A stretch of 32,000 nt of DNA from the NCBI RefSeq assembly GCF_000015805.1, contig NC_009073.1, forward strand, positions 450,001-482,000, given 5' to 3'. The notes below the pieces were generated by a model. It saw nothing but the letters and a program-made list of their open reading frames with translations. It made no database searches and was not told the origin of the DNA. Positions 1-16,808 of this stretch are shown piece by piece. The first letter of the stretch is position 1. Each line of letters starts with the position of its first letter. The position numbers and the translations under genes were made by a program. This stretch comes from Pyrobaculum calidifontis JCM 11548. Its GTDB lineage: Archaea; Thermoproteota; Thermoprotei; Thermoproteales; Thermoproteaceae.

Positions 1-95
1 ACACAGAGAGGCTGTGAGGCGGGCGCTGGAGCAGGCCCAAAAATCTGCATGAAGCTGGGCCACGGCTTTTCGCAAGAAAAATAAACATCGTAAAG

Positions 96-104
96 CTATT
101 ATAG
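96..104 (+). promoter_or_regulatory. Putative TATA box (CTATTATAG) upstream of the ATPase gene
   Basis: A/T-rich element centred 23-29 nt upstream of GTG123/ATG129. The same spacing recurs at many genes in this window (leaderless-type architecture). Confidence 0.4.
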
Positions 105-122
105 CAGACGGACATCGGTGAT

Positions 123-1169
123 GTGGGCATGGGCTACGTAAAGGGCCTGGAGGTAGAGGGCTACCGCGGGCTCCGCAAGGCGAGCCTAACCGACTTCGCA
201 GGGATAAACGTGTTCGTGGGCAAAAACGGCAGCGGGAAGTCCTCCCTCCTCGAAGCCCTCTACATAGCCCTCAAGCCGTTTGACGGGCTGAAGCACGTAG
301 TCAAGAGACGCGGCTGGTTTGGCCTAGCGTCGGCAGAGGCGCTATTCCACGGCAGGGATAGTGAGATCAAGATAAGAATAACGTTGGAGGATGGGTCTTG
401 GGAGGAGGTGATAATAAGACGCAGTGCGCCTACCGTAGGTCATATAGAGGCACTTAAGGCCAAGGGCCTAGACGCCAGCAAACTATATGCGCTCAGCATA
501 AGCGCAAAGGGCAAAGTCGCCGGAGATGCAACATTTTATGTAGACCCCAGCGGTAAATGTCTTACGCTTTTTGAAAAGGGGGAAGGGATGGTTTACGGCG
601 CGACGTTCATTGACTGGAACAGCGTCTACTCCTACGGCACTCCAGAGGAAGCCTATTCCACCATGGTGAAAGAGGGCGGTGAAGAGGCTAAGGAAGCCGT
701 CATCAAGACTTTACAAGCTGAATACGAGGAGCTTCGCGACATCGCAGTCCTTCGTGCATACGACGAATGGGTGCTCCATCTAACCTTTAAGGACGGGGCC
801 GTTCCATACTACGTAGCAGGCGACGGCATTAGATACGCCCTGATGTACCTCATGGCCGTGTCCACGCCCAAAGAAGCCGTGTTGCTAATGGAGGAGCCGG
901 AGCTACATGCCCATCCGAGACTGATGAAGATAGTGGCCAACTCCATCCTCCACACCCACCGCGAAAGGAGAAACCAGGTATTCCTCTCAACCCACAGCCT
1001 AGAGCTAATAGAGATGTTAATCGAACAAGCCGAGAAGCTCGGACTAAAAGACCAAGACCTGAAAATCTACAGACTCGCGCTAAAAAACGGCGTCCTCTAC
1101 AGCAAGGTGTACACCTTAAGCGAAGCCCTAGACGCCGTCAAAAAACTCGAATGGGACCTCAGGAGGTAA
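123..1169 (+). CDS. Stand-alone ABC/SMC-type ATPase (AAA_21/AAA_15-like)
   Basis: 348-aa ORF. Walker A GKNGSGKSS near the N-terminus, signature-like GDGIRYAL, Walker B VLLMEEPE, H-loop LSTHS. Start is GTG123 or ATG129. Confidence 0.8.
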   Translation: MGMGYVKGLEVEGYRGLRKASLTDFAGINVFVGKNGSGKSSLLEALYIALKPFDGLKHVVKRRGWFGLASAEALFHGRDSEIKIRITLEDGSWEEVIIRRSAPTVGHIEALKAKGLDASKLYALSISAKGKVAGDATFYVDPSGKCLTLFEKGEGMVYGATFIDWNSVYSYGTPEEAYSTMVKEGGEEAKEAVIKTLQAEYEELRDIAVLRAYDEWVLHLTFKDGAVPYYVAGDGIRYALMYLMAVSTPKEAVLLMEEPELHAHPRLMKIVANSILHTHRERRNQVFLSTHSLELIEMLIEQAEKLGLKDQDLKIYRLALKNGVLYSKVYTLSEALDAVKKLEWDLRR

Positions 1170-1882
1170 GACGCAAGACGTTGATACTTCTCACGGAGGG
1201 TCTAGTCGAGGAAATAGTCTACTCCAGCATGCTGGAAAAACTATACGGCGGCAGACAAGTAGAGTGCGAAGATGCGCCAACACCGTTGGAAGCGCTCATA
1301 GATCCCCTCATACGACGCGCCAAATGCTATACTCTAGAACATGGAGACCTTATAGTCATAGTCAACAGCAGAGGGTATGAAAATCTCAGAAACACAATCA
1401 GACAACTACTCACACAGCCAGAGCTCCCCGAAGCCCTCGGCCAACTCGACCTACGCATAGCAGTCGCGGCCGACAGAGACAAGAACCCCACCGAGAGCAT
1501 CAGAGGAGTACTATCGTCAATGGGCCTCCAGGCAACAGGAGGCGACACCCTCACCGTTGAGCTCGGCAACGGGGCCAAGTTGGCCATACACGTAATAGAA
1601 CAGGGAGGCGAGGGAGACACTGCCACAGGGGAAATAGAAGACGAGCTAAGAAAACTCGTTGAGACGCTAAAGCCAGAGCTACAACACGCCGCCAAGAAGG
1701 TAGAGGAGATCTACGGGCCACTAACCGACAAGCAGAAGCTACTAATCTACCTGGCACTACTAGAGCGCAAACCCAAGATAAGAGAGCTGTACGAGCTCTT
1801 CAGAGAGGCGGTGGCGGCGGCCAGCAGAGACGCCATAGAACACCTGGGCCTAGCCAAAGGCCTAGGAAAAGCGCTCGGATAG
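1151..1882 (+). CDS. TOPRIM-like small protein (RloB/DUF4276/DUF4435-like pattern), partner of the upstream ATPase
   Basis: 243-aa ORF overlapping the ATPase gene by 19 nt. N-terminal LILLTEGLVEE and central IAVAADRDKN give the E...DxD pattern of TOPRIM domains. Helical C-terminus. Fold assignment is from motif pattern only. Confidence 0.5.
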   Translation: MGPQEVRRKTLILLTEGLVEEIVYSSMLEKLYGGRQVECEDAPTPLEALIDPLIRRAKCYTLEHGDLIVIVNSRGYENLRNTIRQLLTQPELPEALGQLDLRIAVAADRDKNPTESIRGVLSSMGLQATGGDTLTVELGNGAKLAIHVIEQGGEGDTATGEIEDELRKLVETLKPELQHAAKKVEEIYGPLTDKQKLLIYLALLERKPKIRELYELFREAVAAASRDAIEHLGLAKGLGKALG

Positions 1883-1893
1883 CCGCGCGCAGA

Positions 1894-2991
1894 ATGCTCC
1901 TTGAGGCAATCGCCATCGCGCTGACGGCGGCGCACTTCGGGGCGCCCCTGCTCTACTACTGGCGCGCAAAGAGGTGGCTCAAAAAGCCCTGGGACGTCGC
2001 CCCCGACCCCACCTATAGGCCCAGAGTCACCGTGATAGTCCCCACATACAACGAGGCCCCCCTCATCGAGGAGAAGCTGGACAACATATACGAGCAGGAC
2101 TACCCCAGAGACAAGCTGGAGGTCGTGGTGGTAGACTCCGCCAGCACCGACGGGACCCCAAGCGCCGTGAGGAGATGGGCAGAGACACACCCAGACCTCG
2201 CCCTCACCCTCGTCGAGGAGACCGAGAGGCGGGGCAAGGCCCACGCCCTAAACACAGCCCTCAGACACGCCACGGGGGAGATCGTCGTCATAACAGACGC
2301 CGACGCGCTATGGCCCGCCAGAGACACCCTCGCCAACGCCGTCAAGTGGCTCGCCGACCCCACAGTCGGGGCAGTCTCCTGCGTCAAGAGGCCGGCCGGC
2401 CCCGCCGGGGTTGAAGACAGCTACAGAGACTTCTACAACGTGCTAAGAGTCGCCGAGAGCAAGGCCTGGGCAACCCCCATATTCCACGGCGAGCTGGCGG
2501 CCTTCAAGAGGGAGCTACTGGAGAGGCTCGGCGGGTTTCCAACTGACGTAGGCGCAGACGACAGCCACACCGCCACCAAGATAGCCATGATGGGCTACAG
2601 AGCCATAACACCCCCCGACGTCGTATGCGTCGAGGCAGTGCCCAAGCGGGGCTACCACGCGTGGAGAATAAGGAGGGCCCAGCACCTCGTACAACACTTC
2701 GCCAAAGCCATCCGAGACGGCAAAGCCCCACCCCCCTTCAAGCCCATCCTACACGCCGAGGCCTACCTCCATTTGGCCAACCCCTGGGCACTCCCCACAG
2801 CCGCCGCAGCCCTAGCCGCCGCGGCCGCCGCAGGGAGCCTCCCAGCCGCCGCGCTCCTCGCCACAGGCGCCGCCCTAGCCCTCTACAAGCCATATAGGAC
2901 TTGGACTACCATGCAGGCCTACCTAATCGCCGCCGCCGTCAAAAACCTCTGGGACAAGGAGCTAGTCTGGGAAAAACAGGAAAAACGCTAA
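1894..2991 (+). CDS. Family 2 glycosyltransferase, membrane-anchored (PgaC/NodC-like)
   Basis: 365 aa. N-terminal TM, VTVIVPTYNE, VVVDSASTDGT, ITDADA (DxD), GADDSHT, and WRIRRAQH resembling a degenerate QRxRWAQG. Ala-rich C-terminal TM segments. Confidence 0.85.
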   Translation: MLLEAIAIALTAAHFGAPLLYYWRAKRWLKKPWDVAPDPTYRPRVTVIVPTYNEAPLIEEKLDNIYEQDYPRDKLEVVVVDSASTDGTPSAVRRWAETHPDLALTLVEETERRGKAHALNTALRHATGEIVVITDADALWPARDTLANAVKWLADPTVGAVSCVKRPAGPAGVEDSYRDFYNVLRVAESKAWATPIFHGELAAFKRELLERLGGFPTDVGADDSHTATKIAMMGYRAITPPDVVCVEAVPKRGYHAWRIRRAQHLVQHFAKAIRDGKAPPPFKPILHAEAYLHLANPWALPTAAAALAAAAAAGSLPAAALLATGAALALYKPYRTWTTMQAYLIAAAVKNLWDKELVWEKQEKR

Positions 2992-2995
2992 CCAC

Positions 2996-4066
2996 GTGAG
3001 GGTAGTCTACGCCGCGCCCACCTACCACCCCCACGTGGGAGGCGTGGAATACGTCGTCAAGGCGGTCGCGGAGAGGCTGGCCAAGCGGGGCCACGAAGTC
3101 GTCGTACTCGCAGGAGAGCCAAACGCCGAGAGACCCGCCGAGGAGGAGGTGAGCGGGGTGCACGTGGTCAGGTGGCCCACCTGGACCCCCGGCGGGGCCT
3201 ACCACGTCCCCCGCCACAGAGCCAGGCTAGAAGAGGCGCTGAGGGAACTGCTCAGGGGGGCAGACGTGTTGCACGTCCACAGCATACACGCGATCCTCCC
3301 CGTGTGGGCCGGCCTAAAGGCAAGGGAGCTGGGCTTCAGGGGGAGGCTAGTGGCCTCCACGCACTACCACGGCACAGGCCACACCCCCCTGAGGAGGGCC
3401 CTGTGGGCCCTGTGGAGGCGCTACGCCGCTAGGCTCGTAAAGGCCGCAGACGTTGTACACGCCGCGTCTGCCTACGAGGCCAAGCTATTGGAGGAGCACT
3501 TCGCCGTGAGGCCCACCGTCGTGGAACACGGCGTAGACGAAGACGTGGCAGAGGTGCAGTGGACCCCCAGGGACTACGCCATGTACAGCGGCCGCCTAGA
3601 GAAGTACAAAAACGTGGAAAAACTCGCCGCGGTAGTCAAGGCGCTGAGCCGCCTAGGCCACAAGCTCAGGCTAGAGATATACGGCGAAGGCCCCCACCGC
3701 CCCAGCCTAGAGAAGGCGCTTAGGAGGATTGGAGTGGACTACTCAATATACGGCTTTCAGCCGAGGCGCCGCTACTTGGAAAAGCTCGCCGGAGCCGCCC
3801 TCTTCGGCCTACTCTCCACCCACGAGGCCTACGGGCAGACAGCCAACGAGGCAAACGCAATCGGTGTCCCCACCCTGGTGGCCAAGCCCTGGGGAGAACA
3901 CTTCGCCGCCAGGCCCAGGACACTCGCCGTAGACCCCCACGAAGACGCCGAAAAAATAGCCAAAAAGGCGGCGAGGCTAATAGAAGAGGCCCCACGGCAA
4001 CCAAGGCCACGCGTCCCCACCTGGAGCCAGACAGTCGACACGTACCTAAAGCTCTACACCCCCTAA
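2996..4066 (+). CDS. GT-B fold glycosyltransferase (GT4 family)
   Basis: 356 aa, GTG start 4 nt after the upstream stop. N-terminal VVYAAPTYHPHVGGVEYVV. C-terminal STHEAYGQTANEANAIGVPTLV donor-binding-type motif. Confidence 0.8.
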   Translation: MRVVYAAPTYHPHVGGVEYVVKAVAERLAKRGHEVVVLAGEPNAERPAEEEVSGVHVVRWPTWTPGGAYHVPRHRARLEEALRELLRGADVLHVHSIHAILPVWAGLKARELGFRGRLVASTHYHGTGHTPLRRALWALWRRYAARLVKAADVVHAASAYEAKLLEEHFAVRPTVVEHGVDEDVAEVQWTPRDYAMYSGRLEKYKNVEKLAAVVKALSRLGHKLRLEIYGEGPHRPSLEKALRRIGVDYSIYGFQPRRRYLEKLAGAALFGLLSTHEAYGQTANEANAIGVPTLVAKPWGEHFAARPRTLAVDPHEDAEKIAKKAARLIEEAPRQPRPRVPTWSQTVDTYLKLYTP

Positions 4067-4067
4067 A

Positions 4068-5384
4068 ATGCGCCGCCTAGCGCTCGCCGTTGCCGCCGTC
4101 GCCGCGGCCGCCCCCTACCTATACCTCTACGTCACTGCCTACGCCAAATTCTTCGCCCACTACCGCGGGGCCCTAATCCCCCTAGGCGACGACTACCCCA
4201 TGCACGTCTACTTCGCCCTACAATTCTGCCACGACCCAGCCACAGTCATGCAAGGACAGTACCCAGGCCTACTCCACATCGCCGCCTCCCTCCCCTGCGA
4301 CCTGTGGAAAACCGCCACAGCCCTCTCCACAATGGCCATACTGCTGATACCCCTAGCAGTCGCCGCCTGGGGGCTTGTGTACAGGGCAGTAGGCGCGGGG
4401 AAGTGGGCGTGGCCCCTTGCCGCCCTCGCAGTACTCTCCCAGCCCCGCCTACTCCAGTCAGTGGGAGACGGACAACTCCCAGAGAAGTACACACTCCTCG
4501 TCATACTCCCAGCCGCCGCCTACCTATGGCTAAGAGGCAGACGCGCCGCCGCAGGGGCGGTGGCAGGCCTAGCCGCGTGGACAAGCTACCTAGGCGCCAC
4601 CTACGTCGCACTCTTCGCCCTAGCCACCCTAAGCCCAACCCTCGCCGCCACAGCCGCCGCAGTGGCCGCCGCGGGCTGGCCCAGAGTTCAGACCGCATTC
4701 ACAACCGCGGCAGAGGCCGCGGGGGGGCCCGCGCTGATCCCCTACATGGACCCCATTAGGGCCTCCTTCTACGTCTACTTCAACCCCATCGCCCTCCCCG
4801 CCCTAGCCGCCGCGGCCCTGTGGCTAGCAGCTAAAAAGCCCAGGACTCTGCCCCTACTCGCCACAGCCCTCGCCCTATGGGCCGCCGCATTCGCCCTGCC
4901 CCCCCTCAACGAGAGGCTGGCAAGAGCCGCCGGCTTTCTATTGACAGCGTCAACGTTGGCCGCCGCCTGGGAAAAAGACAGGCGCGTACTAGCCGCCACA
5001 GCCCTCCTAATAGCCGCGGGGCCCGCGGCTGCCGGCTGGGCCTGGGCCGCCGCACACATAGCCCCAGTCCCCTACGGAGAACAACTACTCCAATACGGCC
5101 TATTCCAGCCCGCAGTGAGGACGCTCCCCTGCAAACTAGACGCATACCAGGAAATTGCCAAGGAAATACCCCGAGGGGCAACAGTGTCCGTGGCTTGGCA
5201 GTTAGACCTCTGGCTACTCCCCTACCTATACCAGACAAGGCCAGACGTCAAAGTAAACGTAACAGTATGCCCCTGGGACATGGAGGGGTTGCGCGTGGTG
5301 TCGGGCCTCGTGCCCGGTAGCTGGTACCTCCCCTGCTACTCTGGGTGGCCAACGGGGCCCTGCAACGTCACCCTGGTACGGTGA
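4068..5384 (+). CDS. Polytopic membrane protein, candidate GT-C glycosyltransferase or Wzy-like polymerase
   Basis: 438 aa, Ala/Leu-rich with many predicted TM segments. Acidic DDYPMH motif in the first loop. ATG one nt after the upstream stop. Function inferred from context. Confidence 0.5.
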   Translation: MRRLALAVAAVAAAAPYLYLYVTAYAKFFAHYRGALIPLGDDYPMHVYFALQFCHDPATVMQGQYPGLLHIAASLPCDLWKTATALSTMAILLIPLAVAAWGLVYRAVGAGKWAWPLAALAVLSQPRLLQSVGDGQLPEKYTLLVILPAAAYLWLRGRRAAAGAVAGLAAWTSYLGATYVALFALATLSPTLAATAAAVAAAGWPRVQTAFTTAAEAAGGPALIPYMDPIRASFYVYFNPIALPALAAAALWLAAKKPRTLPLLATALALWAAAFALPPLNERLARAAGFLLTASTLAAAWEKDRRVLAATALLIAAGPAAAGWAWAAAHIAPVPYGEQLLQYGLFQPAVRTLPCKLDAYQEIAKEIPRGATVSVAWQLDLWLLPYLYQTRPDVKVNVTVCPWDMEGLRVVSGLVPGSWYLPCYSGWPTGPCNVTLVR

Positions 5385-6337
5385 GGGTGCTGGCAGTGGT
5401 GGAGGATTGGCCAGACCGCGGCGGGGGGCTACTCGCCACAGAGCTATGGCTAAAAGCCGCGTGCAGAGAGGTCGAGGTGGTAGTGGTGGGCCCAAGGCCC
5501 TTCCCCCCATGCCCCCACTTGCCCCACCCCCTACCACACCAGCGGCCCAAGCTCTGGCTCACAAGACCAAGGGTCGACCTAGCCAAATTCGACGTCTTGT
5601 ACATACCCAGATACGCCTACCACCTCATCCCCGCCGCCAAGCGCCTAGGCCTAAGAGCGGTGGTACACATGCACGGATACCCCACCTACCTCTCCACCGG
5701 GCAGCCCCACGACTGGCGCTACGAGACGGCGACTGTGAAGAGACTATACGCCGCCGCGGCCGCCAAGGCGGTGGAGACCCTCATCGACAAGTGGCTCAGA
5801 CAGGCAGACGCCGTCATATGCGTAAGCAGAGCCCACTGCGCCCGCCTGGAGAAGTACCGCGTGGTTTATGTGCCAAACCCCCCGCCCCCAGTCCCCCAGA
5901 TAAGCGCCCCCCGCGCCAGGCGGTTCGTCTACCCATGGGGCCCAAGGCCCTTCAAAGGCCCCCACATAGCCAGAGCCGTCGCAAAGGCCCTCGGCACAGA
6001 GCTGGTGGAGACCGGGGAGTTGAGCAGGGGGGAGTACTACCACGTCGTGGCCACCTCCAAGGCCCTCCTCGCCCCAGCCCTGTGGGACGAGCCCTACGGA
6101 TACGCCGTGGTAGAGGCCATGATGCTCGGCACACCCCCCGTCGCCTTCGCCAGAGGGGCAATACCCGAGTTAGTCGAGGGCACAGAGGCCGAGGCCTACC
6201 TAGCCCACAACCTCGCCGAATTCGCCAAGGCCGCCAAAAAGGCCCTCGAAGAGCCGCCGCCCCCCAAGCTGGCCAAAGAGGCCAGAGAGAAGTTCCGCAC
6301 CGAGCTAGACCGCTTCCTAAAAGCGCTGATGGGGTGA
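5381..6337 (+). CDS. GT-B fold glycosyltransferase (GT4-like)
   Basis: C-terminal WDEPYGYAVVEAMMLGTPPVAFARGAIPELVEG motif. GTG5381 overlaps the upstream stop as GTGA and gives an N-terminus VRVLAVVED typical of GT4. ATG5345 is the longer alternative start. Confidence 0.7.
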   Translation: MRVLAVVEDWPDRGGGLLATELWLKAACREVEVVVVGPRPFPPCPHLPHPLPHQRPKLWLTRPRVDLAKFDVLYIPRYAYHLIPAAKRLGLRAVVHMHGYPTYLSTGQPHDWRYETATVKRLYAAAAAKAVETLIDKWLRQADAVICVSRAHCARLEKYRVVYVPNPPPPVPQISAPRARRFVYPWGPRPFKGPHIARAVAKALGTELVETGELSRGEYYHVVATSKALLAPALWDEPYGYAVVEAMMLGTPPVAFARGAIPELVEGTEAEAYLAHNLAEFAKAAKKALEEPPPPKLAKEAREKFRTELDRFLKALMG

Positions 6338-7344
6338 CCTGGGACGCCACCCTAGCACTGCTCTGGTTCTTAGCCCCAGAGGCAGGCCGCGCCCTCTCCC
6401 CCCGCGACCCAGCCAAGGCAGTGGCCCTCGGCCTCGCCGCGCTGGCCGCCTCCCTAGCCTTCCCCCCAGCCGCCTTACTCATAATAGTCACAAAGAGGCA
6501 CAGGCCAGACCCGTGGTTCCTCGCCGCCCTCAAGCCCATCGCCGTCGCCGCCGCCCTCGGCCACCTACTACCCCACCCCGAGCCCCTCGCCTTCGCCAAA
6601 GGAGGAGTGTGGAGCCAGTACGCCCCCCTCACCTACTACATGTACAAACTGGCCTGGTGGGCAACCCCAGAGGCGGTGGCCCTCGGCGGCACAGCCGCCG
6701 CCGCGGCCATCCTCTACCAAGCCCTAGCCGCCTGGAGAGGGGCAAGGGACGCCGCCCTCCTCACCCTCATGTGGCCCACCCCCGCCTTCCAATACTTCTC
6801 ACACCACGCCTACACCTTCGCCGCCATATGGACCGCGTGGCTCATGTGGGAAAAAGGCCGCAGACGCGCCTGGCTAGGCTACACAGCGCTGGCAACGGCA
6901 TTCCACACCATAATGGGACCCCTAGCCGCCGCCCCCCTCCTCAAACGCAGAGCAATACAAGCGCTAGCCGCCCTCTGGGCCATATACTTCGCCATAAGGG
7001 GGGCCTGGCCCATCGGCGACGTCGTGGCAGGAGCCGCCGCGGCCCTAGCCGACCCAAGCCGCCTAGCCGCCGGCGCAATAGCTCTGCTCGACAGCTTGCC
7101 CACCCTAGCCGCCCTGCCCACATACCTCTACATCCTCGCCACAGCCCACAGAGGAGGCATCTACTACGCCGTAGCCCTGCTGGGAATTGCAATAGCCGCC
7201 CTAACCGCCGCCCACGTGCCGCCCAGCGTCGCCAGAGGCTACATCTCCAGGTTCATATTCCTCGCCCTACCCTTCGCCGGGACAGCCGCCTGGCCCCTAG
7301 GCCTAGCCGCGTATATATACCAGGCAAGCCTCACCGCGGTATGA
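6334..7344 (+). CDS. Polytopic membrane protein (Wzy/O-antigen-polymerase-like or GT-C candidate)
   Basis: 336 aa from GTG6334 (GTGA overlap with the upstream stop), hydrophobic throughout. The part of the 645-aa ORF upstream of 6334 is Arg/Pro-rich and overlaps the GT4-like gene, so it is not coding. Confidence 0.5.
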   Translation: MTWDATLALLWFLAPEAGRALSPRDPAKAVALGLAALAASLAFPPAALLIIVTKRHRPDPWFLAALKPIAVAAALGHLLPHPEPLAFAKGGVWSQYAPLTYYMYKLAWWATPEAVALGGTAAAAAILYQALAAWRGARDAALLTLMWPTPAFQYFSHHAYTFAAIWTAWLMWEKGRRRAWLGYTALATAFHTIMGPLAAAPLLKRRAIQALAALWAIYFAIRGAWPIGDVVAGAAAALADPSRLAAGAIALLDSLPTLAALPTYLYILATAHRGGIYYAVALLGIAIAALTAAHVPPSVARGYISRFIFLALPFAGTAAWPLGLAAYIYQASLTAV

Positions 7345-8657
7345 CCGAGCGAGTGGCCAAGACGGGCTTCCACATATACGGCCAGTCCATCGCCTTCGCA
7401 ATCGGCGGGGGGCTCTACTGGATAATCGCCGCCGCCCTAGTGGGCCCCGCCGAAATGGGAAAAGCGGCGTACGTGGTGTCCCTAGCCGCGCTCGCCTCCA
7501 CCACCGCCGGGCTGGGCCTCGACAGCGCCGTCCTCAAGATGCAACCCAGGGACTGGGGCGCCATGTACACAGCCACAGCCCTCTACCTCGCCCTGTCGGC
7601 GCCAGCGGCGGCTGTAGCGGCCTATGTCGCGTGGCAGAGCTTGGGCCTGCCTGGCGCCATCGCCGCCGCGGTGTTGGCCCTCTCCTGGCTGTCTAACATT
7701 TACACAAGCGCCGTGGTGGCCTCCTTCAACGCCCAGAGGCTGCCCCTCTACGCCGCCGCCTCCATAGCCGCAAGATTCGCAGTAACCTTCGCCGCGCTCG
7801 GGGCGGGGTGGGCCGCCGTGGCCTATGGATACGCCGCGGGAAGCGCCCTCTACCTCGCCCTAACCGCCGCCACAGCCGCCGCCCTGTGGGGGAGGCCGAG
7901 GAGGCTGGGAGAGTTCCGGGAGGTGGCAAAGGCCGGCCTCTCGGCCTGGCCCAGCCAGCTGGTAGCCGCGGCCCTGATGGGGGGAGGCACCGCCCTCGCC
8001 TTCTCCAAAGCCCACGAAGCCGCCGGCGCCTACTACCTAGCCTACACAGTCGCCACAGTCGCCGTCGGCCTGCCGTCTGCGATAGCCAGAGCCGCCATCC
8101 CCTACTTCGCCGCCACGGGATCCCCCGCGGAGAGAGTAGCCGCAGTGACCGCCTACGTGGGAGCCCCCTTCGTCGCCGCCGCAGTAGCCGCCCCCACCCA
8201 GATACTTGCGCTAATTAGGCAAGACTACGCCGCGGGAGGCCCCGACCTAGCCGCACTGGCCCCAGCCCTCTGGCTAAACGCCGTAGCCTCAGTCCACTTA
8301 AACAAGAAGTACGCCGACGGGAGATATGCCACATACGCCCTAGCCTACGCCGCCTTCGGCGCCACGCTGGCAGTCGCGTCGGCCTACATCGGATACGGCC
8401 CAGCCGCCCTCGCCGCCTCCGCCGTGCTCTACGCCCTCTCAGGCGCGCCTCTCAGGCACCTGGCACTGCTGGCCACAGCCGCCCCAGCCCCACTCCTCGG
8501 CGCCGCCCTGCCCTGGCCCGCCGCAGTGGCCGCGGCCTTCCTCCTGTCACTTGCCGCCTCTGCGCCACTGGTCGGGGCAGAGGAGAGGAGGATTGTCGTG
8601 GAGCTCGCCCCCAAATACTTAAAGCCCCTCGTCAAGCGCCTAACGTGGACTGCGTAA
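7341..8657 (+). CDS. Wzx-like oligosaccharide flippase (polysaccharide biosynthesis protein / MOP superfamily)
   Basis: 438 aa from ATG7341 (ATGA overlap). N-terminus KTGFHIYGQSIAFAIGGGLYWIIAAALVGPAEMGKAAYVVSLAAL is typical of the Wzx/RfbX family. About 12 or more hydrophobic segments. Confidence 0.65.
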   Translation: MTERVAKTGFHIYGQSIAFAIGGGLYWIIAAALVGPAEMGKAAYVVSLAALASTTAGLGLDSAVLKMQPRDWGAMYTATALYLALSAPAAAVAAYVAWQSLGLPGAIAAAVLALSWLSNIYTSAVVASFNAQRLPLYAAASIAARFAVTFAALGAGWAAVAYGYAAGSALYLALTAATAAALWGRPRRLGEFREVAKAGLSAWPSQLVAAALMGGGTALAFSKAHEAAGAYYLAYTVATVAVGLPSAIARAAIPYFAATGSPAERVAAVTAYVGAPFVAAAVAAPTQILALIRQDYAAGGPDLAALAPALWLNAVASVHLNKKYADGRYATYALAYAAFGATLAVASAYIGYGPAALAASAVLYALSGAPLRHLALLATAAPAPLLGAALPWPAAVAAAFLLSLAASAPLVGAEERRIVVELAPKYLKPLVKRLTWTA

Positions 8658-9760
8658 CCCTCGTAATACCCACCCTAGACGAGGCCGAGGCCATAGGCAA
8701 AGTGATAGAGGAGGCCAGGAGAGCGGGCTTCACAAAGATACTAGTGGTAGACGGAGGCTCCAGGGACGGCACCCCCCAAATCGCCGCAGAGAAGGGCGCA
8801 GTCGTAATAGGGCAGAGGGGGAGGGGAAAGGGAGACGCCATAGCCACAGCACTAGACTACGTGGACACCCCCTACCTCGTCGTAATAGACGGAGACTACA
8901 CCTACCCCCCAGAGGAGGCCGCCAAGCTAGTCGCATACCTACGGCACTACGACCTAGTCCTAGGCGCGAGGCAGGGCCCCATGCCCCTCATCTACCGCGT
9001 GGGAAACTGGCTACTGGCAAGGGCCATATCCCTAATGTACGGAGTGAGGCTGAGGGACCCCCTCACAGGCATGTACGCCGCCAGGACCGAGGTCCTCAGG
9101 CGAGCCGCCCCCACAGCCCAAGGCTTCGACATAGAGACAGAGATAATAGCCAAGGCAGTGGAACAGGGCGCGTCGGTGAGAGAGGTGCCCATCCAGTACA
9201 GGAAGAGGCTAGGCCGCAAAAAGCTAAAGCCATGGCACGGCCTTCACATCCTCTGGCGCGCAGTGAGAGCCGCCTACACCGCCAACCCACTCCTCGCCCT
9301 ATACCTCGCCGGAGCCCTCCTCGCCGCGCCAGGCCTCGCCCTAGGCGGATGGGTCGCCTACAGGCTATTCTACCAGGGAGTCCCCCACTACATGCTAGGC
9401 TTGTTAGCCCTCGGCCTACTCCTACTCGGGTTGGTCTCCCTCGCCCTAGCCCCCCTAGCCGCCGCCGTGGTGAGACTGAGGGCACAAATCGCCCGCGCCA
9501 CCCCCAGACAGGAGCCCACAGACTGCCTCCCACCACTCCCACCACCCCCACCACCCCAGCCCAGGAGGCGCCCAACCATCTGGGACAGACTAGAGGCAAC
9601 GGCCAGGGGGCTGACAATAGCCTTCGCCGCGACCCTCTCCGCCGCCGCGTACTTCCTAGCCGTGGGAGACACGCCGACCGCGAACAAGCTCGCCGAATAC
9701 GCCTACTACTTCCTCGCCGCCGCGACTGTGATATATCTGGCAGTAGCCGCCAAACAATGA
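8645..9760 (+). CDS. GT2 glycosyltransferase, dolichyl-phosphate hexose synthase-like (DPM1/AglD/AglJ type) with C-terminal membrane domain
   Basis: 371 aa. VTLVIPTLDEAEAIGKVIE, LVVDGGSRDGT, VVIDGDYTYP (DxD). C-terminal TM helices separated by a proline run PPLPPPPPPQPRRRP. 13-nt overlap with the flippase gene. Confidence 0.75.
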   Translation: MDCVTLVIPTLDEAEAIGKVIEEARRAGFTKILVVDGGSRDGTPQIAAEKGAVVIGQRGRGKGDAIATALDYVDTPYLVVIDGDYTYPPEEAAKLVAYLRHYDLVLGARQGPMPLIYRVGNWLLARAISLMYGVRLRDPLTGMYAARTEVLRRAAPTAQGFDIETEIIAKAVEQGASVREVPIQYRKRLGRKKLKPWHGLHILWRAVRAAYTANPLLALYLAGALLAAPGLALGGWVAYRLFYQGVPHYMLGLLALGLLLLGLVSLALAPLAAAVVRLRAQIARATPRQEPTDCLPPLPPPPPPQPRRRPTIWDRLEATARGLTIAFAATLSAAAYFLAVGDTPTANKLAEYAYYFLAAATVIYLAVAAKQ

Positions 9761-10272
9761 GCTGGAGGCTTACCGCCACCGTGGCCATAACCGCCACGCT
9801 GATCGCGCTGGTAGCCGCCCTGTTGCCCCCCACCGACTTGTTGACACAGCTACGCTCAGCCACCTACACCGCCCACTACCCCTGGGGCCTCGTCGCCGCA
9901 GACGGGAGCCACGCATACGCGGAGCTGGGCCCCTACAGGGTGGCCCTCAACCTGTGGAAAATCGTGATATGCGACGGCGGGTGCACCAGCCAGAACATAA
10001 ACGCCATCCAGCTATACGCCCAGCTCAAGGCACAGGGCCAACTCGTCATAGAAGACAGGGGAGGCGGGTGCTACCACGCACAGCTAAAACCCACCCAACT
10101 CGCCGGCAGAGTCGTAGCCGCCGACGTCACCTTCTGCCTACAAAGAGGCATCCCTACCCGGATAGACGGCACAGTCACAATAGACGGACACGAGATAAGG
10201 CTCGGCGGAGAGCCCCACATCGAGCCGACATTCCCAATGGACAAATACCTAGAAATCCACGAAAAAACTTAA
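9757..10272 (+). CDS. Hypothetical exported/membrane-anchored protein
   Basis: 171 aa from ATG9757 (ATGA overlap). N-terminal hydrophobic anchor TATVAITATLIALVAALL followed by a Cys-containing soluble domain (CDGGC). No recognised family. Confidence 0.55.
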   Translation: MSWRLTATVAITATLIALVAALLPPTDLLTQLRSATYTAHYPWGLVAADGSHAYAELGPYRVALNLWKIVICDGGCTSQNINAIQLYAQLKAQGQLVIEDRGGGCYHAQLKPTQLAGRVVAADVTFCLQRGIPTRIDGTVTIDGHEIRLGGEPHIEPTFPMDKYLEIHEKT

Positions 10273-10277
10273 AAAAT
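10268..10277 (+). promoter_or_regulatory. Putative internal TATA box (CTTAAAAAAT) for the downstream gene set
   Basis: A/T-rich element overlapping the stop of the preceding gene, centred about 24 nt upstream of ATG10296. It coincides with a drop in GC content of the locus. Confidence 0.35.
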
Positions 10278-10295
10278 CCCCGCGTTGTGGCGTGT

Positions 10296-10658
10296 ATGCC
10301 CTCGCCGCTGGTGTTGCACAGGTTGTTGGCTGTTAGGTCTTTGGCGCTGCGTAGGGGTGTTTGGTTTAGGGTTAGGCCGGCGGCGAGGGCGCTAATAGAC
10401 GCCGTAATCATACACCTCAGAAGGGGCGGCCGGGTGAAGTCGCCCGCCCTCATCGACGCCCTCAAGAGGGCCGTGGAAGAGGCCCTCTCCCTCGCCGCGC
10501 CGCTTCGCGTAAAGGCGAAGGCCCTGGGATACGCCATAGCCGCCAAGCTCGGCATCACAGTAGACGAAGAGAGAGCCATCGCCCTAGGAATACAATGGAT
10601 AAACACCCCAAAAAGGTATAGAGGAGAGATGCTGCTCACATGGACAGTGGCGCCGTAG
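10296..10658 (+). CDS. Hypothetical small basic helical protein
   Basis: 120 aa from ATG10296. The listed 234-aa ORF extends upstream in Arg-rich sequence that overlaps the previous gene. No recognised motif. Confidence 0.45.
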   Translation: MPSPLVLHRLLAVRSLALRRGVWFRVRPAARALIDAVIIHLRRGGRVKSPALIDALKRAVEEALSLAAPLRVKAKALGYAIAAKLGITVDEERAIALGIQWINTPKRYRGEMLLTWTVAP

Positions 10659-11605
10659 GCGGAATTGAGGTTAGCGTAGTTGTTCCCACCTATAACGAGG
10701 AGAAGAACATCGGGACTCTGCTAAGAGCCCTCGACGAGGCCCTACACGGAATACCCTACGAAGTGGTGATAGTGGACGACGCAAGCCAAGACAAGACCAT
10801 TGAAGTAGCTAATGCCACTCCTATCAGCGGGCACTTAGTTGTATATAGGAAGCCAAAAAGAACGGGAAAGCCGGAGTCCCTCGCCATAGGGCTAAAGGTG
10901 GCCAGAGGCAGATACATTTCCTTCCTAGACGCAGACCTGGAATACCCGCCCAAGGCCATAGCCCAAATGTACCATGAGGCGCTTGAAACGAATGCGGACA
11001 TCATCGCCGCGGCTAGGATAGACAAAAGGCCACTTCACAGAAGAGTAATATCGTGGGGGGCAAAACTCCTAGCAAAGCTAATGATACGAGAGCTGAGGAG
11101 GCTAAGAGACCCCACCACCGAGCTCATACTGGCCAAAAAAGAAGCTCTGGTTAAGGTGGGATTTGAAAAATACGCCAAGTACATAAAGCCCATAACAGCG
11201 GCCCTCCGCCACACAGCAAAACTCGGCTACAGAATAGCCGAAGTGCCAGTAGAGGTGACCCCCAGGCAACACGGCTCCAGTAGCTTCAAGACCAAATGGA
11301 TAACCGCCTACCTGAAAGAGCTAATGGACCTTACCGACTGGCTCATACCCAAATACATCGCAATCGCCCTCGTGGCAGCCCTCATAGCACACGTCTTAAA
11401 CCCAGCCATAGGCATAGCCTCCCTCGCCATGAGCCTAGCCATCCGCTACATCCCACTAAGACGCCTAATCAACCCCCTGGGCCTCATCACGGCCGAGGCC
11501 ACCTCCACAGCGCTAAAAATCGCCTCCGCCTCCCTCATCGGGCTACCTCTCGCTTGGCTAATAGCCTCAGCCCTCGAGGTGGCGCTAGTGATGTGGCTAA
11601 GATAG
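10640..11605 (+). CDS. GT2 glycosyltransferase, dolichyl-phosphate hexose synthase-like with C-terminal TM helices
   Basis: 321 aa. VSVVVPTYNEEKNIGTLL, VIVDDASQDKT, FLDADLEYPP. C-terminal hydrophobic tail. Confidence 0.8.
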   Translation: MDSGAVGGIEVSVVVPTYNEEKNIGTLLRALDEALHGIPYEVVIVDDASQDKTIEVANATPISGHLVVYRKPKRTGKPESLAIGLKVARGRYISFLDADLEYPPKAIAQMYHEALETNADIIAAARIDKRPLHRRVISWGAKLLAKLMIRELRRLRDPTTELILAKKEALVKVGFEKYAKYIKPITAALRHTAKLGYRIAEVPVEVTPRQHGSSSFKTKWITAYLKELMDLTDWLIPKYIAIALVAALIAHVLNPAIGIASLAMSLAIRYIPLRRLINPLGLITAEATSTALKIASASLIGLPLAWLIASALEVALVMWLR

Positions 11606-12423
11606 TGGGAAGATACGGGGGTAAGCCCACGCCCCCAGAGATAGCCTACATAGACGAAAAAGCCATAGCCACATACGAGCCATACGTGGTGCCCGTGATC
11701 TGGGCCCCAGAAGCCCCAACGCCGGAAGCCGCCGTGGTAACCATAGACGGGACGCGGGGCCTATTCGCCTTCAACAACTCGGGCTGTCCACGAAACCCAG
11801 CCGTAGTACAACACCTAAAAAAGAAGATAGAGAGAGTGAGGCGGCTGGGGTACTCCCTAGCAGTCCTCGACGAGCTCAACTACCCCACCCCACACGACGG
11901 CGAGCTCTTCTACAGTTGCTTCTGTCAATACTGCCTAACCCACAGCCCACGGCTAAAAATGCTCAAAAAAGGCGACCTCCAAGGACTCGCCGAGGTCCGG
12001 AAAGACCTCGTGAGGAGCGTGCTGAGAGAGGTGGCCCAATACGCCGAAGGCCTCGGGCTGAGGCTAGAGGCGGCAGTACACGCCCCTACAATAGCCCACC
12101 TAGCAGGCCAAGACTACCACACATTCCTCAGACACGTGGACAGACTACAGGTAATGCTATACCGCAAATGCCCAGGCCCAGCCTGCCTAAACCGAGAGCT
12201 GGCAATGCTCGCCCGCTTCGGCTACAACCCATATGGAATAGACCCAGACGCGGTGGAGAAGGCAGGCGTGCCAATCCGTGTGCTAAAGCAAGAGGCGCAG
12301 AAGGCCAGAGAGCTGGCCGGAGAGAGAGCCATCCCAATACTCTGGGCCGACGAGAAGCTCCCAGAAGCCATAAGGGCGGTAGAGGAGGTGGGATTCGAAG
12401 AAGTCATAATATTCACGCCATGA
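11605..12423 (+). CDS. Hypothetical protein, possible TIM-barrel glycoside-hydrolase-like (GHL/DUF4015-type) enzyme
   Basis: 272 aa from GTG11605 (overlaps the upstream TAG). The segment CPRNPAVVQHLKKKIERVRRLGYSLAVLDELNYP resembles the C-x-x-N-P...LD-x-x-x-x-P pattern of GHL families. Weak assignment. Confidence 0.35.
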   Translation: MGRYGGKPTPPEIAYIDEKAIATYEPYVVPVIWAPEAPTPEAAVVTIDGTRGLFAFNNSGCPRNPAVVQHLKKKIERVRRLGYSLAVLDELNYPTPHDGELFYSCFCQYCLTHSPRLKMLKKGDLQGLAEVRKDLVRSVLREVAQYAEGLGLRLEAAVHAPTIAHLAGQDYHTFLRHVDRLQVMLYRKCPGPACLNRELAMLARFGYNPYGIDPDAVEKAGVPIRVLKQEAQKARELAGERAIPILWADEKLPEAIRAVEEVGFEEVIIFTP

Positions 12424-13532: not shown

Positions 13533-13535
13533 AAT

Positions 13536-16566: not shown

Positions 16567-16621
16567 AATACATAAAAATGATTAATTATATAGGCCATAC
16601 ACCGCGCTGAGAATGTAAATC

Positions 16622-16808
16622 GTGAAAATTTTAAGTTTTGGGGCTCGCGTTTAAGCCTGGCACAGACGACGTGAGAGAGTCACGCGGCGTGGAGGTGGCC
16701 AAGCTCTTGGCTGAGGAGGGAGCGGAGGTCTACGTCCACGACCCCGTGGCGTTGGAAAAGGCGAAGGCCGTGCTAGGAGACAAGGTGGCCTATGTGGAAG
16801 ACGCGTAG
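16622..16808 (+). pseudogene. ugd: 3'-terminal remnant of UDP-glucose/GDP-mannose 6-dehydrogenase
   Basis: Translation gives VKILSFG (frame a), then after a GGGG run [55 protein letters not shown]-stop (frame b). [14 protein letters not shown] is the hallmark of the UDPG_MGDP_dh C-terminal domain. About 60 of roughly 430 expected codons remain. High GC, unlike the flanks. Confidence 0.8.

What the first reader, a model, noticed from the sequence alone, without database searches (positions are those of the whole stretch)
123..1882. Overlapping ABC-ATPase + TOPRIM-like gene pair: a split OLD/PARIS-like candidate defence module in a hyperthermophile
Seen: protein 1 is only an ABC/SMC-type ATPase head (GKNGSGKSS, GDGIRYAL, VLLMEEPE, STHS). 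Protein 2 starts 19 nt inside gene 1 and shows an N-terminal LILLTEGLVEE glutamate motif plus a central AADRDKN DxD motif, which is the catalytic pattern of TOPRIM domains. Established: OLD-family nucleases fuse exactly these two modules. PARIS (AriA/AriB) and RloA/RloB-type pairs split them into two genes and act in anti-phage defence. Inference: this is a compact archaeal version of that architecture. No hyperthermophilic crenarchaeal representative has been characterised to my knowledge. Only 11 nt separate this pair from the first gene of the glycan locus, so it may be co-transcribed with cell-surface genes.
Basis: partly seen in the sequence, partly recalled or inferred. Interest (0 to 1): 0.65.

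Follow-up and report, generated by a model that had tools for sequence, protein, structure and literature searches.

The report
Archaeal two-gene ATPase–nuclease defence candidate
Two tightly linked genes in a Pyrobaculum-like archaeon encode an ABC-type ATPase and a small TOPRIM-like predicted nuclease, and the pair looks like an untested antiviral module that only by accident sits next to a sugar-coat gene cluster.

Summary
Window 129(123)-1169 encodes an ABC ATPase (AAA_15/AAA_21) with all catalytic motifs invariant. Window 1151(or 1181)-1882 encodes a 243-aa protein in which E16, D108xD110, G152 and E163-D164 are conserved across 31 homologues at 20-48% identity.

Protein 2 belongs with PH0156/DUF3226, an uncharacterised Pyrococcus structure (2P62, TM 0.69). 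Profile-profile alignment to OLD-family TOPRIM domains places its E and DxD in register (score 33.5; shuffled controls reach at most 14.4). Foldseek did not return any solved TOPRIM nuclease.

Both proteins match PADLOC's untested candidate PDC-M38 best. They are not PARIS (no AriB/DUF4435 match), not AbiL/RloAB, and not a fused OLD.

The pair is conserved as a unit in eight independent loci, with gaps of -19 to +42 nt. Its neighbours there are CRISPR-Cas genes, HEPN/MNT and PIN genes, an integrase, STAND-like ATPases and further ATPase-partner modules.

Adjacency to glycan genes is specific to this lineage. GC jumps from 54% to 64-69% at the boundary, and protein 2 is cleanly deleted in a close relative.

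Verdict: a divergent archaeal member of the known ATPase+TOPRIM defence theme. Function is inferred, not shown.

The parts
97..105 (+). Candidate archaeal TATA-like box (CTATTATAG) about 27 nt upstream of ATG 129. This would give the pair its own promoter and a leaderless mRNA.
   Evidence: Read directly from the sequence. Inference only: the bacterial sigma-70 scan is not applicable and found nothing.
129..1169 (+). Gene 1: ABC/OLD-type ATPase, 346 aa from ATG 129 (348 aa if GTG 123 is used).
   Evidence: ORF. Pfam AAA_15 1.3e-22 and AAA_21 1.6e-22. PADLOC best match PDC-M38A 7.7e-33, then AbiLi and AriA. 72 homologues.
219..242 (+). Walker A / P-loop, GKNGSGKS (residues 31-38).
   Evidence: G31, N33 and K37 invariant, G36 and S38 in at least 90% of 15 homologues.
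819..827 (+). ABC signature-like motif GDG (residues 231-233).
   Evidence: Invariant in 15 homologues.
891..902 (+). Walker B / catalytic glutamate block EEPE (residues 255-258), followed by invariant H262.
   Evidence: Invariant in 15 homologues.
987..998 (+). H-loop / switch motif STHS (residues 287-290).
   Evidence: T288, H289 and S290 invariant.
1155..1163 (+). Conserved C-terminal D-L-R tail of the ATPase (D343, L344, R345). It lies inside the overlap with gene 2 and is a possible partner-docking element.
   Evidence: L344 invariant, D343 at least 90%. The docking role is speculation.
1151..1882 (+). Gene 2: PH0156/DUF3226-type TOPRIM-like predicted metal-dependent nuclease, 243 aa. The alternative start TTG 1181 would give 233 aa.
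   Evidence: ORF. Homologues. AF2 model pLDDT 85.7. Foldseek 2P62 TM 0.69. Pfam OLD-like_TOPRIM in 19/31 and DUF3226 in 15/31 family members. hhalign to an OLD TOPRIM profile, score 33.5.
1196..1201 (+). E16-G17, predicted catalytic glutamate at the C-terminal end of strand beta1.
   Evidence: E16 30/30, G17 29/30. Strand 9-15 in the model. Aligns with the glutamate of P2 Old LLVEGKTE.
1472..1480 (+). D108-R-D110, the DxD motif at the C-terminal end of strand 100-108.
   Evidence: D108 30/31, D110 29/31. Aligns with Old ADCD and PH0156 DVD.
1598..1606 (+). E150-Q151-G152 at the end of the last core strand (143-151).
   Evidence: Q151 28/31, G152 31/31, E150 19/31.
1637..1642 (+). E163-D164, a second conserved acidic pair at the start of the C-terminal helical domain. 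Candidate second metal site.
   Evidence: E163 31/31, D164 30/31. The metal-binding role is inferred.
1883..1893 (+). 11-nt spacer to the GT2 gene. It marks the boundary between the 50-55% GC pair and the 63-69% GC glycan block.
   Evidence: In L095 the same two flanks are joined with gene 2 deleted.

Best explanation
The two genes form one operon encoding a two-component nucleic-acid-targeting defence (abortive-infection type) module. It belongs to the broad OLD/PARIS/PDC-M38 theme.

Protein 1 is an ABC-type ATPase. Like other ABC ATPases it is expected to dimerise around ATP, acting as sensor and regulator. Protein 2 is a PH0156/DUF3226-type TOPRIM-like enzyme. Its conserved E16, D108xD110 and E163-D164 are expected to bind divalent metal and cut DNA or RNA.

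By analogy with PARIS (AriA holds AriB until a viral trigger releases it) and with OLD, Gabija and Cran1 (nuclease activity depends on the ATPase), the ATPase most likely keeps the nuclease in check. It would license the nuclease on sensing infection, stopping viral replication or host growth.

Shown: domain identities, motif conservation, tight gene linkage, co-divergence, defence-island neighbourhoods and dispensability. Inferred: nuclease activity, physical complex, trigger, substrate and the antiviral phenotype.
For: ATPase identity and intact motifs.

Protein 2:
- Conserved acidic residues at strand ends.
- OLD-like_TOPRIM and DUF3226 are the only recurrent Pfam matches, in 19/31 and 15/31 members. 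No other family matches more than 2/31.
- hhalign against a profile of fused OLD TOPRIM domains scores 33.5 (P 3e-4) with E and DxD in register. Controls reach at most 14.4.
- PH0156 is a full-length structural neighbour (TM 0.69) and a profile match (34 bits).
- PH0156 is reported as the top HHpred hit of a PARIS AriB (PMC11381338).

Both proteins hit the two components of PADLOC PDC-M38. The Roseburia pair in L015 is a clear PDC-M38, with its ATPase at 1.8e-67 and a partner that passes the DUF3226 threshold.

The pair is conserved as a unit in 8 independent loci, with gaps of -19 to +42 nt. Identities of the two proteins are correlated (r 0.86, n 28 locus pairs).

Neighbourhoods:
- CRISPR-Cas, HEPN and a Cas_NE0113 (CARF-like) gene (L092).
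- An array of paralogous ATPase-partner modules with STAND-like ATPases and PaREP1/HEPN (L093).
- Integrase and PIN (L094).
- HEPN-MNT (L007).
- A second HEC-01A-like ATPase (L009, L010).

Signs of a non-essential gene: clean deletion of gene 2 in L095, a degraded second copy in L012, truncated copies P0030 and P0031, and only 45 clusters among 1.84 billion representatives.
Against: - No experiment exists for this family, for PH0156 or for PDC-M38, which is one of 145 untested candidates.
- The related HEC-01 (ATPase + DUF4276) gave no protection in the assays of Payne et al..
- Foldseek with both the full and the core-only model returned no OLD, GajA, AriB or primase TOPRIM structure in the top 50.
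- PDB sequence profiles found none either.
- The window protein itself is below threshold for OLD-like_TOPRIM (E 0.21).
- An archaeal OLD-family protein, Cran1, works in the cell cycle and not in defence.
- The pair was not found on viral contigs.
Confidence: 0.6

Rival explanations
1. A chromosomal housekeeping or DNA-processing role rather than defence. As with Cran1, the class 5 OLD ATPase-nickase of Sulfolobales, the pair could act on host DNA or chromatin (repair, replication or cell-cycle control). Alternatively it could work like RecF/RecR or Rad50-type ATPase-plus-TOPRIM machinery.
For: - Cran1 shows that an archaeal OLD-family enzyme can be non-defensive.
- The closest PDB sequence matches of protein 1 are Rad50 heads, and it has a weak RecF hit.
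- NurA/HerA genes lie within 8 kb in two loci.
Against: - Cran1 is fused, essential, vertically inherited across Sulfolobales and paired with a membrane protein.
- Here the genes are split and the family is tiny and patchy.
- Gene 2 is deleted in a 75-84% identical relative and degraded elsewhere.
- The contexts are defence, toxin-antitoxin or mobile genes.
- The Rad50/RecF matches cover only the Walker A region.
Confidence: 0.12
2. A selfish addiction (toxin-antitoxin-like) cassette. The nuclease would be a toxin and the ATPase its antidote or regulator, and the cassette would persist in variable islands by post-segregational killing without providing antiviral benefit.
For: - The AAA_21 Pfam family is annotated as a 'putative AbiEii toxin, type IV TA system'.
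- Neighbours are often TA-type genes such as HEPN-MNT, PIN and PaREP1.
- The cassette is duplicated and decays within islands.
- In L095 the surviving gene is the ATPase (the putative antidote) while the nuclease (the putative toxin) is lost. That is the order expected for TA decay.
Against: - Not found on viral contigs.
- Embedding next to CRISPR-Cas and the match to a guilt-by-embedding defence candidate point to immunity.
- TA behaviour and abortive-infection defence are not mutually exclusive.
Confidence: 0.12
3. Protein 2 is not a nuclease. The PH0156/DUF3226 fold might use its acidic cluster for another metal-dependent reaction (such as phosphatase or nucleotide hydrolysis), or for binding only. 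The pair would then signal or regulate rather than cleave nucleic acid.
For: - No solved TOPRIM nuclease was recovered by structure or PDB sequence search.
- The family carries a 27-residue insertion and extra invariant residues (QG 151-152, E163-D164, K194) that are not part of the minimal TOPRIM signature.
- PH0156 has no assigned function.
Against: - E and DxD align in register with OLD TOPRIM, well above controls.
- The only recurrent Pfam hits are OLD-like_TOPRIM and DUF3226.
- PH0156 is the reported HHpred bridge to AriB, a proven TOPRIM nuclease (PMC11464382).
Confidence: 0.1
4. The pair works with the adjacent glycan locus, for example by regulating or being co-expressed with cell-surface glycosylation genes.
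For: - Only 11 nt separate gene 2 from the first GT2 gene, and no obvious TATA box precedes the GT2 gene.
- The same arrangement is found in close relatives.
- A bacterial PDC-M38 pair in Roseburia is also directly followed by two GT2 genes.
Against: - Six more distant loci have no glycosyltransferase nearby.
- In L007, five unrelated small genes separate the pair from the GT cluster.
- GC jumps from 0.50-0.55 to 0.63-0.69 at the junction.
- In L095 gene 2 is deleted while the GT2 gene is retained at 92.5% identity.
- Neither protein has a glycan-related domain.
Confidence: 0.04

Closest known systems
PADLOC candidate PDC-M38 (Payne et al., bioRxiv 10.1101/2024.01.29.577857): ABC ATPase + DUF3226-type partner, untested
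   Same: The same two-gene order and strand. Protein 1's best match of all 5027 PADLOC models is PDC-M38A (7.7e-33). Protein 2 and 12/19 of its relatives match PDC-M38B. A clear PDC-M38 pair in Roseburia has a DUF3226 partner with the same EG...DxD layout.
   Different: The partner match is weak (E 1e-4 to 1e-6, about half the model length). The archaeal family is closer to PH0156 than to the bacterial PDC-M38B-type partner (34 versus 12.9 bits). The window family is confined to Thermoproteota-like hot-spring contigs.
PH0156 of Pyrococcus horikoshii (PDB 2P62; Pfam DUF3226), structural-genomics orphan
   Same: It is the only genuine structural neighbour: TM 0.69 for the full-length model, and TMq 0.62 with rmsd 3.6 A for the core. 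It is the same length (241 aa). It shares the IIVEGKTDE...LLEKLYG N-terminus and a DVD motif aligned to the DxD.
   Different: About 16-18% identity. PH0156 has no known function, and I could not inspect its genomic partner.
PARIS (AriA/AriB; 'Class 4' OLD)
   Same: A split ABC ATPase plus a small TOPRIM effector encoded by adjacent genes. Protein 1 matches AriA models at 3.8e-23. PH0156 is the reported top HHpred hit of an AriB (PMC11381338). PARIS is the likely analogue for mechanism (PMC11464382, PMC10802454).
   Different: Protein 2 matches no AriB/DUF4435 model. The ATPase is about 100-150 aa shorter than the 53-55 kDa AriA. PARIS was reported only in bacteria (PMC12796447). No anti-restriction trigger is known for archaeal viruses.
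Fused OLD-family nucleases (P2 Old, Class 1/2; GajA of Gabija)
   Same: The same ATPase families (AAA_15/AAA_21). The TOPRIM E and DxD align in register with P2 Old and nine fused OLD-type proteins.
   Different: Here the domains are on two polypeptides. There is no helicase partner. Protein 2 has a 27-residue insertion in the core and a different helical C-terminal domain. No structural hit was found.
Cran1 (class 5 OLD of Sulfolobales; PMC12796447)
   Same: A crenarchaeal OLD-type ATPase with a TOPRIM nickase whose activity depends on the ATPase domain.
   Different: Cran1 is fused, essential, vertically inherited, linked to a membrane protein and tied to the cell cycle. The pair here is split, patchy, dispensable and located in defence islands.
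HEC-01 / DUF4276-type pairs and AbiL (AbiLi/AbiLii), RloA/RloB
   Same: ABC ATPase + small TOPRIM-like partner. Protein 1 matches AbiLi (8.2e-25) and HEC-01A (1.5e-18). More distant relatives of the ATPase carry DUF4276/HEC-01B partners.
   Different: Protein 2 matches no AbiLii, RloB, DUF4276 or HEC-01B model. hhalign to DUF4276-type partners aligns only the first 25 columns.

Membership tests
ABC/OLD-type ATPase (Pfam AAA_15 / AAA_21) | Profile match above the curated threshold. | tested here: met
   AAA_15 81.3 bits (cutoff 32.1). AAA_21 81.4 bits (cutoff 27).
ABC/OLD-type ATPase (Pfam AAA_15 / AAA_21) | Walker A, signature-like motif, Walker B with catalytic Glu, and H-loop all present and conserved. 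| tested here: met
   G31/N33/K37, GDG 231-233, EEPE 255-258, H262, Q283 and T288-H289-S290 are invariant in 15 homologues.
TOPRIM domain | Conserved glutamate at the end of the first strand. | tested here: met
   E16 30/30. It directly follows strand 9-15. It aligns with the Old glutamate.
TOPRIM domain | Conserved DxD at the end of the third core strand. | tested here: met
   D108 30/31 and D110 29/31, at the end of strand 100-108. Aligned to Old ADCD.
TOPRIM domain | Significant match to a curated TOPRIM profile. | tested here: inconclusive
   The window protein scores E 0.21 (12.6 bits, cutoff 23.2). 19/31 relatives match at E<=0.1, best 2.3e-5. hhalign to my own OLD TOPRIM profile gives P 3e-4 and probability 39%, with controls at most 14.4 against 33.5.
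TOPRIM domain | Structural similarity to a solved TOPRIM enzyme. | tested here: inconclusive
   The top 50 Foldseek PDB hits contain only PH0156 as a real match. No OLD, GajA, AriB, DnaG or topoisomerase appears. Lower-ranked hits are not shown, and I had no coordinates to check strand order.
PH0156 / DUF3226 | Fold and profile similarity to PH0156 / PF11536. | tested here: met
   TM 0.69, E 2.7e-7. The family profile scores 34 bits on PH0156 residues 1-112. PF11536 matches 15/31 members, best 1.6e-7. The window protein alone does not reach PF11536.
PADLOC PDC-M38 | Component A match. | tested here: met
   PDC-M38A at 7.7e-33, the best of 149 matching models.
PADLOC PDC-M38 | Component B match. 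| tested here: inconclusive
   PDC-M38B at E 1.2e-4, covering 107 of 240 model positions. 12/19 relatives match, best 2.5e-6. I did not apply PADLOC's own per-model thresholds.
PADLOC PDC-M38 | The two genes are adjacent on the same strand. | tested here: met
PARIS (AriA/AriB) | AriB: a DUF4435-type TOPRIM partner. | tested here: not met
   No AriB or DUF4435 match for the window protein or for the 19 relatives at E<=1. There is one marginal hit (E 0.0072) for the L012 homologue.
PARIS (AriA/AriB) | Activation by viral anti-restriction proteins, and tRNA cleavage. | not testable with these tools
   Requires experiments.
Fused OLD nucleases (Classes 1-3, Gabija GajA) | ATPase and TOPRIM on one polypeptide, plus a helicase or retron partner for Classes 2/3 and Gabija. 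| tested here: not met
   There are two ORFs in all 8 loci. No helicase or reverse transcriptase is adjacent.
Cran1 / class 5 OLD | Fused protein, conserved membrane-protein partner, vertical inheritance, essentiality. | tested here: not met
   The genes are split and there is no conserved membrane neighbour. Gene 2 is deleted in a close relative. The family is small, with 45 clusters.
AbiL / RloAB / HEC-01 | Partner of AbiLii, RloB or DUF4276 type. | tested here: not met
   No such hits. hhalign to DUF4276-type partners aligns only 25 columns at probability 6%.

The most novel reading that the evidence does not exclude
The PH0156/DUF3226-type pairs could be a distinct, largely archaeal class of split OLD-type immune systems. 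In the published OLD classification the split class (PARIS) was found only in bacteria. Such a class would have its own effector architecture: a TOPRIM core with an insertion, a second acidic site at E163-D164 and a helical tail. It might also have its own trigger and substrate in hyperthermophile-virus conflicts. This would also give a function to the 2007 orphan structure 2P62.
Probability: 0.35. Interest if true: 0.55.

Novelty: new member of a known kind. Interest (0 to 1): 0.4.

Why it matters
Antiviral systems of hyperthermophilic archaea other than CRISPR-Cas are almost untested. The only characterised archaeal OLD-family enzyme turned out to be a cell-cycle factor.

This pair is compact (346 + 243 aa), predicted to be thermostable and well modelled. 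It could show whether the ATPase-controls-TOPRIM-nuclease logic of PARIS, OLD and Gabija operates in archaea. It would also assign a function to DUF3226/PH0156 and to PADLOC's PDC-M38. Thermostable ATP-gated nucleases could be useful reagents.

It does not change any concept. ATPase + TOPRIM pairs are already a recognised recurring theme.

Tried and rejected
- **Genome-collection scan with the protein 2 alignment:** 296 pattern matches, none confirmed. Pyrobaculum genomes appear to be absent or masked, so I could not do a presence/absence survey in named genomes.
- **Exact-sequence look-ups:** Tneu_0498 and the Pyrolobus ATPase were not on record.
- **Viral structure library:** nothing.
- **Viral contig scans with both proteins:** nothing.
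- **Foldseek hits to glyoxalase/FosB and Arf GTPases:** rejected as spurious (TM 0.17-0.46, rmsd 6-16 A).
- **Core-only remodelling (residues 1-160):** did not bring out TOPRIM structures.
- **PDB sequence searches with three profiles:** only PH0156. The hit is circular because PH0156 was in the alignment.
- **Coiled-coil/GCN4 and ribosomal eS12 hits:** low-complexity helix noise.
- **Homologue search with the TOPRIM half of P2 Old:** only 5 proteins, so I built the OLD TOPRIM profile from fused proteins in the fetched loci instead.
- **hhalign to DUF4276-type partners:** only the first motif aligned.
- **Literature searches:** 'PDC-M38', 'DUF3226' and MADS MAD3/MAD4 gave nothing usable. The weak mad3/mad4 matches were not pursued.
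- **Herpes_BLRF2 Pfam hit (E 0.022):** ignored as noise.
- **Rfam on the whole window:** no RNA families.
- **Bacterial promoter and terminator scans:** at background level and not applicable to archaea.
Full report
**1. What is there**

The window opens 122 nt upstream of two same-strand ORFs. Gene 1 is 123/129..1169 (348 or 346 aa). Gene 2 is 1151..1882 (243 aa). A GT2 glycosyltransferase gene follows 11 nt later at 1894. Gene callers on identical metagenomic contigs start gene 1 at ATG 129. An ATTATA element at 99-104 sits where an archaeal TATA box for a leaderless transcript would be (my reading; inference).

The start of gene 2 is ambiguous. However, several homologues start at the equivalent of TTG 1181, 11 nt after the stop of gene 1, with GGAGG at 1162-1166. 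Across eight independent loci the spacing is -19 to +42 nt. The conserved feature is therefore tight juxtaposition, not the overlap itself.

**2. Protein 1**

Protein 1 passes the Pfam thresholds for AAA_15 and AAA_21. Its best match among 5027 PADLOC models is PDC-M38A (7.7e-33), followed by AbiLi, AriA, HEC-01A and GajA. NCBIfam gives only partial matches to MAD3, RecF, the retron Eco8 effector and Rad50. PDB sequence matches are limited to the Walker A region of Rad50.

In 15 homologues down to 20% identity, the following are invariant or nearly so:
- Walker A (G31, N33, K37)
- an RR pair (R60, R61)
- GDG (231-233)
- EEPE (255-258)
- H262 and Q283
- T288-H289-S290
- a C-terminal D-L-R tail

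The protein therefore looks like a catalytically competent ABC-type ATPase. At 346 aa it is a compact one.

**3. Protein 2**

Protein 2 alone has no significant Pfam or NCBIfam match (OLD-like_TOPRIM E 0.21). It does hit PADLOC PDC-M38B (1.2e-4).

The family is small. There are 31 proteins in the 5.8-billion-protein index, nearly all from hot-spring metagenomes. Two are named genes, Pyrobaculum neutrophilum Tneu_0498 and a truncated P. islandicum Pisl_1482. An exhaustive profile search of 1.84 billion cluster representatives found only 45 clusters.

Conservation in 31 members at 20-48% identity:

| Residue | Conserved in |
|---|---|
| E16 | 30/30 |
| G17 | 29/30 |
| Position 20 (acidic) | 28/30 |
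| D108 | 30/31 |
| D110 | 29/31 |
| Q151 | 28/31 |
| G152 | 31/31 |
| E163 | 31/31 |
| D164 | 30/31 |

Across those members the only recurring Pfam families are OLD-like_TOPRIM (19/31, best 2.3e-5) and DUF3226 (15/31, best 1.6e-7). No other family matches more than 2/31. PDC-M38B matches 12/19 close members.

**4. Fold**

AlphaFold2 with the family alignment gives a confident model (pLDDT 85.7, pTM 0.83). It has an alpha/beta core (residues 9-151) followed by a helical domain (162-242). E16 directly follows strand 9-15. D108 ends strand 100-108. E150-Q151 end strand 143-151. E163-D164 begin the first helix of the tail. These are the positions expected for a TOPRIM-type active site at the C-terminal edge of a parallel sheet (inference, since I had no coordinates).

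Foldseek against the PDB returns one genuine neighbour, 2P62. This is the hypothetical protein PH0156 of Pyrococcus horikoshii (TM 0.69, E 2.7e-7). The other hits (glyoxalase/FosB, Arf) have TM below 0.5 and are spurious. A core-only model (pLDDT 88.8) gave the same result. No solved OLD, GajA, AriB, primase or topoisomerase TOPRIM appeared, so the direct structural test of TOPRIM is inconclusive.

I built my own OLD TOPRIM profile from P2 Old and nine fused OLD-type proteins found in fetched loci. It aligns to the protein 2 family over 70 columns with score 33.5 (P 3e-4). E16 falls on the Old glutamate and AADRD on Old ADCD, and the alignment skips a 27-residue family-specific insertion. The reversed control scores 10.3, and 30 column shuffles score at most 14.4.

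I conclude that protein 2 is a divergent TOPRIM-like protein of the PH0156/DUF3226 group. This is probable but not proven.

**5. The pair as a unit**

Every sufficiently long locus with a close ATPase homologue carries a protein 2 family gene immediately downstream. These loci are L007, L009, L010, L012, L092, L093 and L094, besides the window lineage. Identities of the two proteins co-vary (Pearson 0.86 over 28 locus pairs, not phylogenetically independent), and protein 2 diverges faster.

More distant ATPase relatives keep the same architecture with other small EG...DxD partners:
- **DUF3226-type partners** occur in Byssovorax, Roseburia and a Thermoproteales MAG.
- **DUF4276/HEC-01B-type partners** occur in Pirellulaceae, Bacteroidia and Meiothermus.

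The Roseburia ATPase is a full-length PDC-M38A (1.8e-67), and its partner passes the DUF3226 threshold. This shows what PDC-M38 is: an ABC ATPase plus a DUF3226-type partner. PDC systems are 145 untested 'guilt-by-embedding' candidates (10.1101/2024.01.29.577857).

**6. Neighbourhood and the glycan question**

In the window's own genome, the gene upstream of the pair is a STAND-like ATPase_2, just beyond the 5' end of the window.

| Locus | Identity to window | Context |
|---|---|---|
| L007 | 71% | HEPN-MNT and Pol-beta genes lie between that anchor gene and the pair. Five small genes (DUF2283, TPR, PaREP1 and others) separate the pair from the GT cluster. |
| L095 | 75% (ATPase) | The upstream island holds another AAA_15 pair, PaREP1, an MNT gene and three ATPase_2 genes. 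|
| L092 | 42% | Cas4, Cas1, Cas2, Cas1 and Cas6 directly upstream. A Cas_NE0113 (CARF-like) gene and HEPN downstream. |
| L093 | 55% | At least four ATPase-partner modules plus ATPase_2 genes. |
| L094 | 42% | An integrase and a PIN gene. |
| L009, L010 | 59%, 42% | A second HEC-01A-like ATPase. |

None of the last five loci (L092, L093, L094, L009, L010) has glycosyltransferases nearby.

In the window, GC is 0.50-0.55 across the pair and jumps to 0.63-0.69 from about nt 1800-1900. In L095 the flanks are retained (84% identity for window 1-1173 and 92.5% for window 1882-2984). The 708 nt of gene 2 between them are replaced by 33 nt.

So the pair belongs to the variable defence/toxin-antitoxin island on its upstream side. 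The glycan locus is merely the next block. Read-through transcription into the GT2 gene remains possible in this genome, but it is not a conserved feature. One oddity remains: the Roseburia PDC-M38 pair is also followed by two GT2 genes. This is probably because polysaccharide loci are themselves variable islands.

**7. Mechanism (inferred)**

This rests on established knowledge of ABC ATPases and on PARIS, OLD, Gabija and Cran1 (PMC11464382, PMC10802454, PMC12392090, PMC12796447).

The ATPase probably dimerises on ATP and binds the nuclease. A viral cue or a change in nucleotide state would then release or activate the nuclease. The nuclease would use E16/D108/D110, and perhaps E163/D164 as a second metal site, to cut DNA or tRNA. 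That would abort the infection.

Loss of the nuclease gene with retention of the ATPase gene in L095 fits a toxic effector. So do the degraded copies in L012, P0030 and P0031.

**8. Rivals**

- **Cran1-like housekeeping role.** Cran1 is a real precedent for a non-defence archaeal OLD enzyme. It is fused, essential, vertically inherited and linked to a membrane protein, none of which applies here.
- **Pure addiction module.** This cannot be separated from abortive-infection defence by sequence alone.
- **Non-nuclease chemistry.** This is possible given the missing structural link.
- **A glycan-related role.** This is unlikely.

**9. Novelty**

The architecture is a well-known theme, and PADLOC already lists the closest candidate. 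The following points are new:
- An archaeal, hyperthermophile-associated branch of the split type. The published OLD classification found split (PARIS) and retron classes only in bacteria.
- The link of PH0156/DUF3226 to an ABC-ATPase partner.
- Evidence from context and gene decay.

I rate it a new member of a known kind, of moderate interest.

**Organism.** The source is not disclosed. The identical protein occurs on a 2,009,313-bp contig, and the nearest named relatives are Pyrobaculum species. From memory, that size matches P. calidifontis, but I did not test this.

Noticed in passing
window 2001-18000: The glycan locus is a compositional mosaic. GC is 0.64-0.69 at 2-10 kb, 0.55-0.56 at 10-13 kb, and only 0.25-0.39 at 13-18 kb, against about 0.54-0.58 elsewhere. 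This suggests several independently acquired blocks. The 25-28% GC stretch is extraordinary for a hyperthermophile of this GC content.
   Followed up: partly
window 14368-16566 (+): A 732-aa ORF at 27% GC has no Pfam match and about 11 hydrophobic segments. It is flanked by low-GC GT2 genes (13536-14441, 17101-17976). It is probably a foreign polymerase, flippase or oligosaccharyltransferase-like membrane protein.
   Followed up: partly
window 4068-5384, 5407-7344 and 6513-8657 (+): These are large ORFs in the 65-68% GC block. They have no Pfam match, or only a marginal one (Polysacc_synt_3, E 3.8e-5), and they overlap one another in different frames. The true gene models here are uncertain.
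   Followed up: no
L095 9049-9081, compared with window 1174-1881: In a close relative, gene 2 is cleanly deleted (708 nt replaced by 33 nt) while the ATPase and the GT2 gene are retained. The ATPase flank is 84% identical and the GT2 flank 92.5% identical.
   Followed up: yes
L012 409-2186 (-) and 5986-7625 (+): A Desulfurococcaceae MAG carries two copies of the pair within 7 kb. The second copy has only fragments of the partner gene (a 72-aa ORF at 7065-7283 and a hit at 7341-7625).
   Followed up: partly
L093 1839-12545: An array of at least four ABC-ATPase + small-partner modules sits on one 12-kb stretch. One has a DUF4276-like partner, one is the protein 2 family, and one is a distant protein 2 paralogue at 32.7 bits. 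They are interleaved with three STAND-like ATPase_2 genes. It looks like a diversifying cassette array.
   Followed up: partly
L015 5968-9856: A clear PDC-M38 pair in a Roseburia MAG is followed after 18 nt by two GT2 glycosyltransferase genes. This echoes the arrangement in the window in a distant bacterium. It may be coincidence or a shared 'variable island' effect.
   Followed up: partly
L009 1-1666; L092 1-1532; L094 2382-3545: NurA and/or HerA-like (DUF87/FtsK) genes lie within 6-8 kb of the pair in three independent loci. I did not determine whether these are the housekeeping copies or defence-associated paralogues.
   Followed up: no
window 1155-1163 (protein 1 residues 343-345): The extreme C-terminus of the ATPase (…DLR) is conserved from archaea to bacteria. 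It lies in the region overlapping or abutting the start of the partner gene. It may be a docking motif.
   Followed up: no
window 2996-4066 and 11916-13532 (+): Both GT4 glycosyltransferases also match Pfam 'GT4-conflict' (family 4 glycosyltransferase in conflict systems) at 1.5e-11 and 7.1e-9. These matches are weaker than their generic GT4 matches.
   Followed up: no
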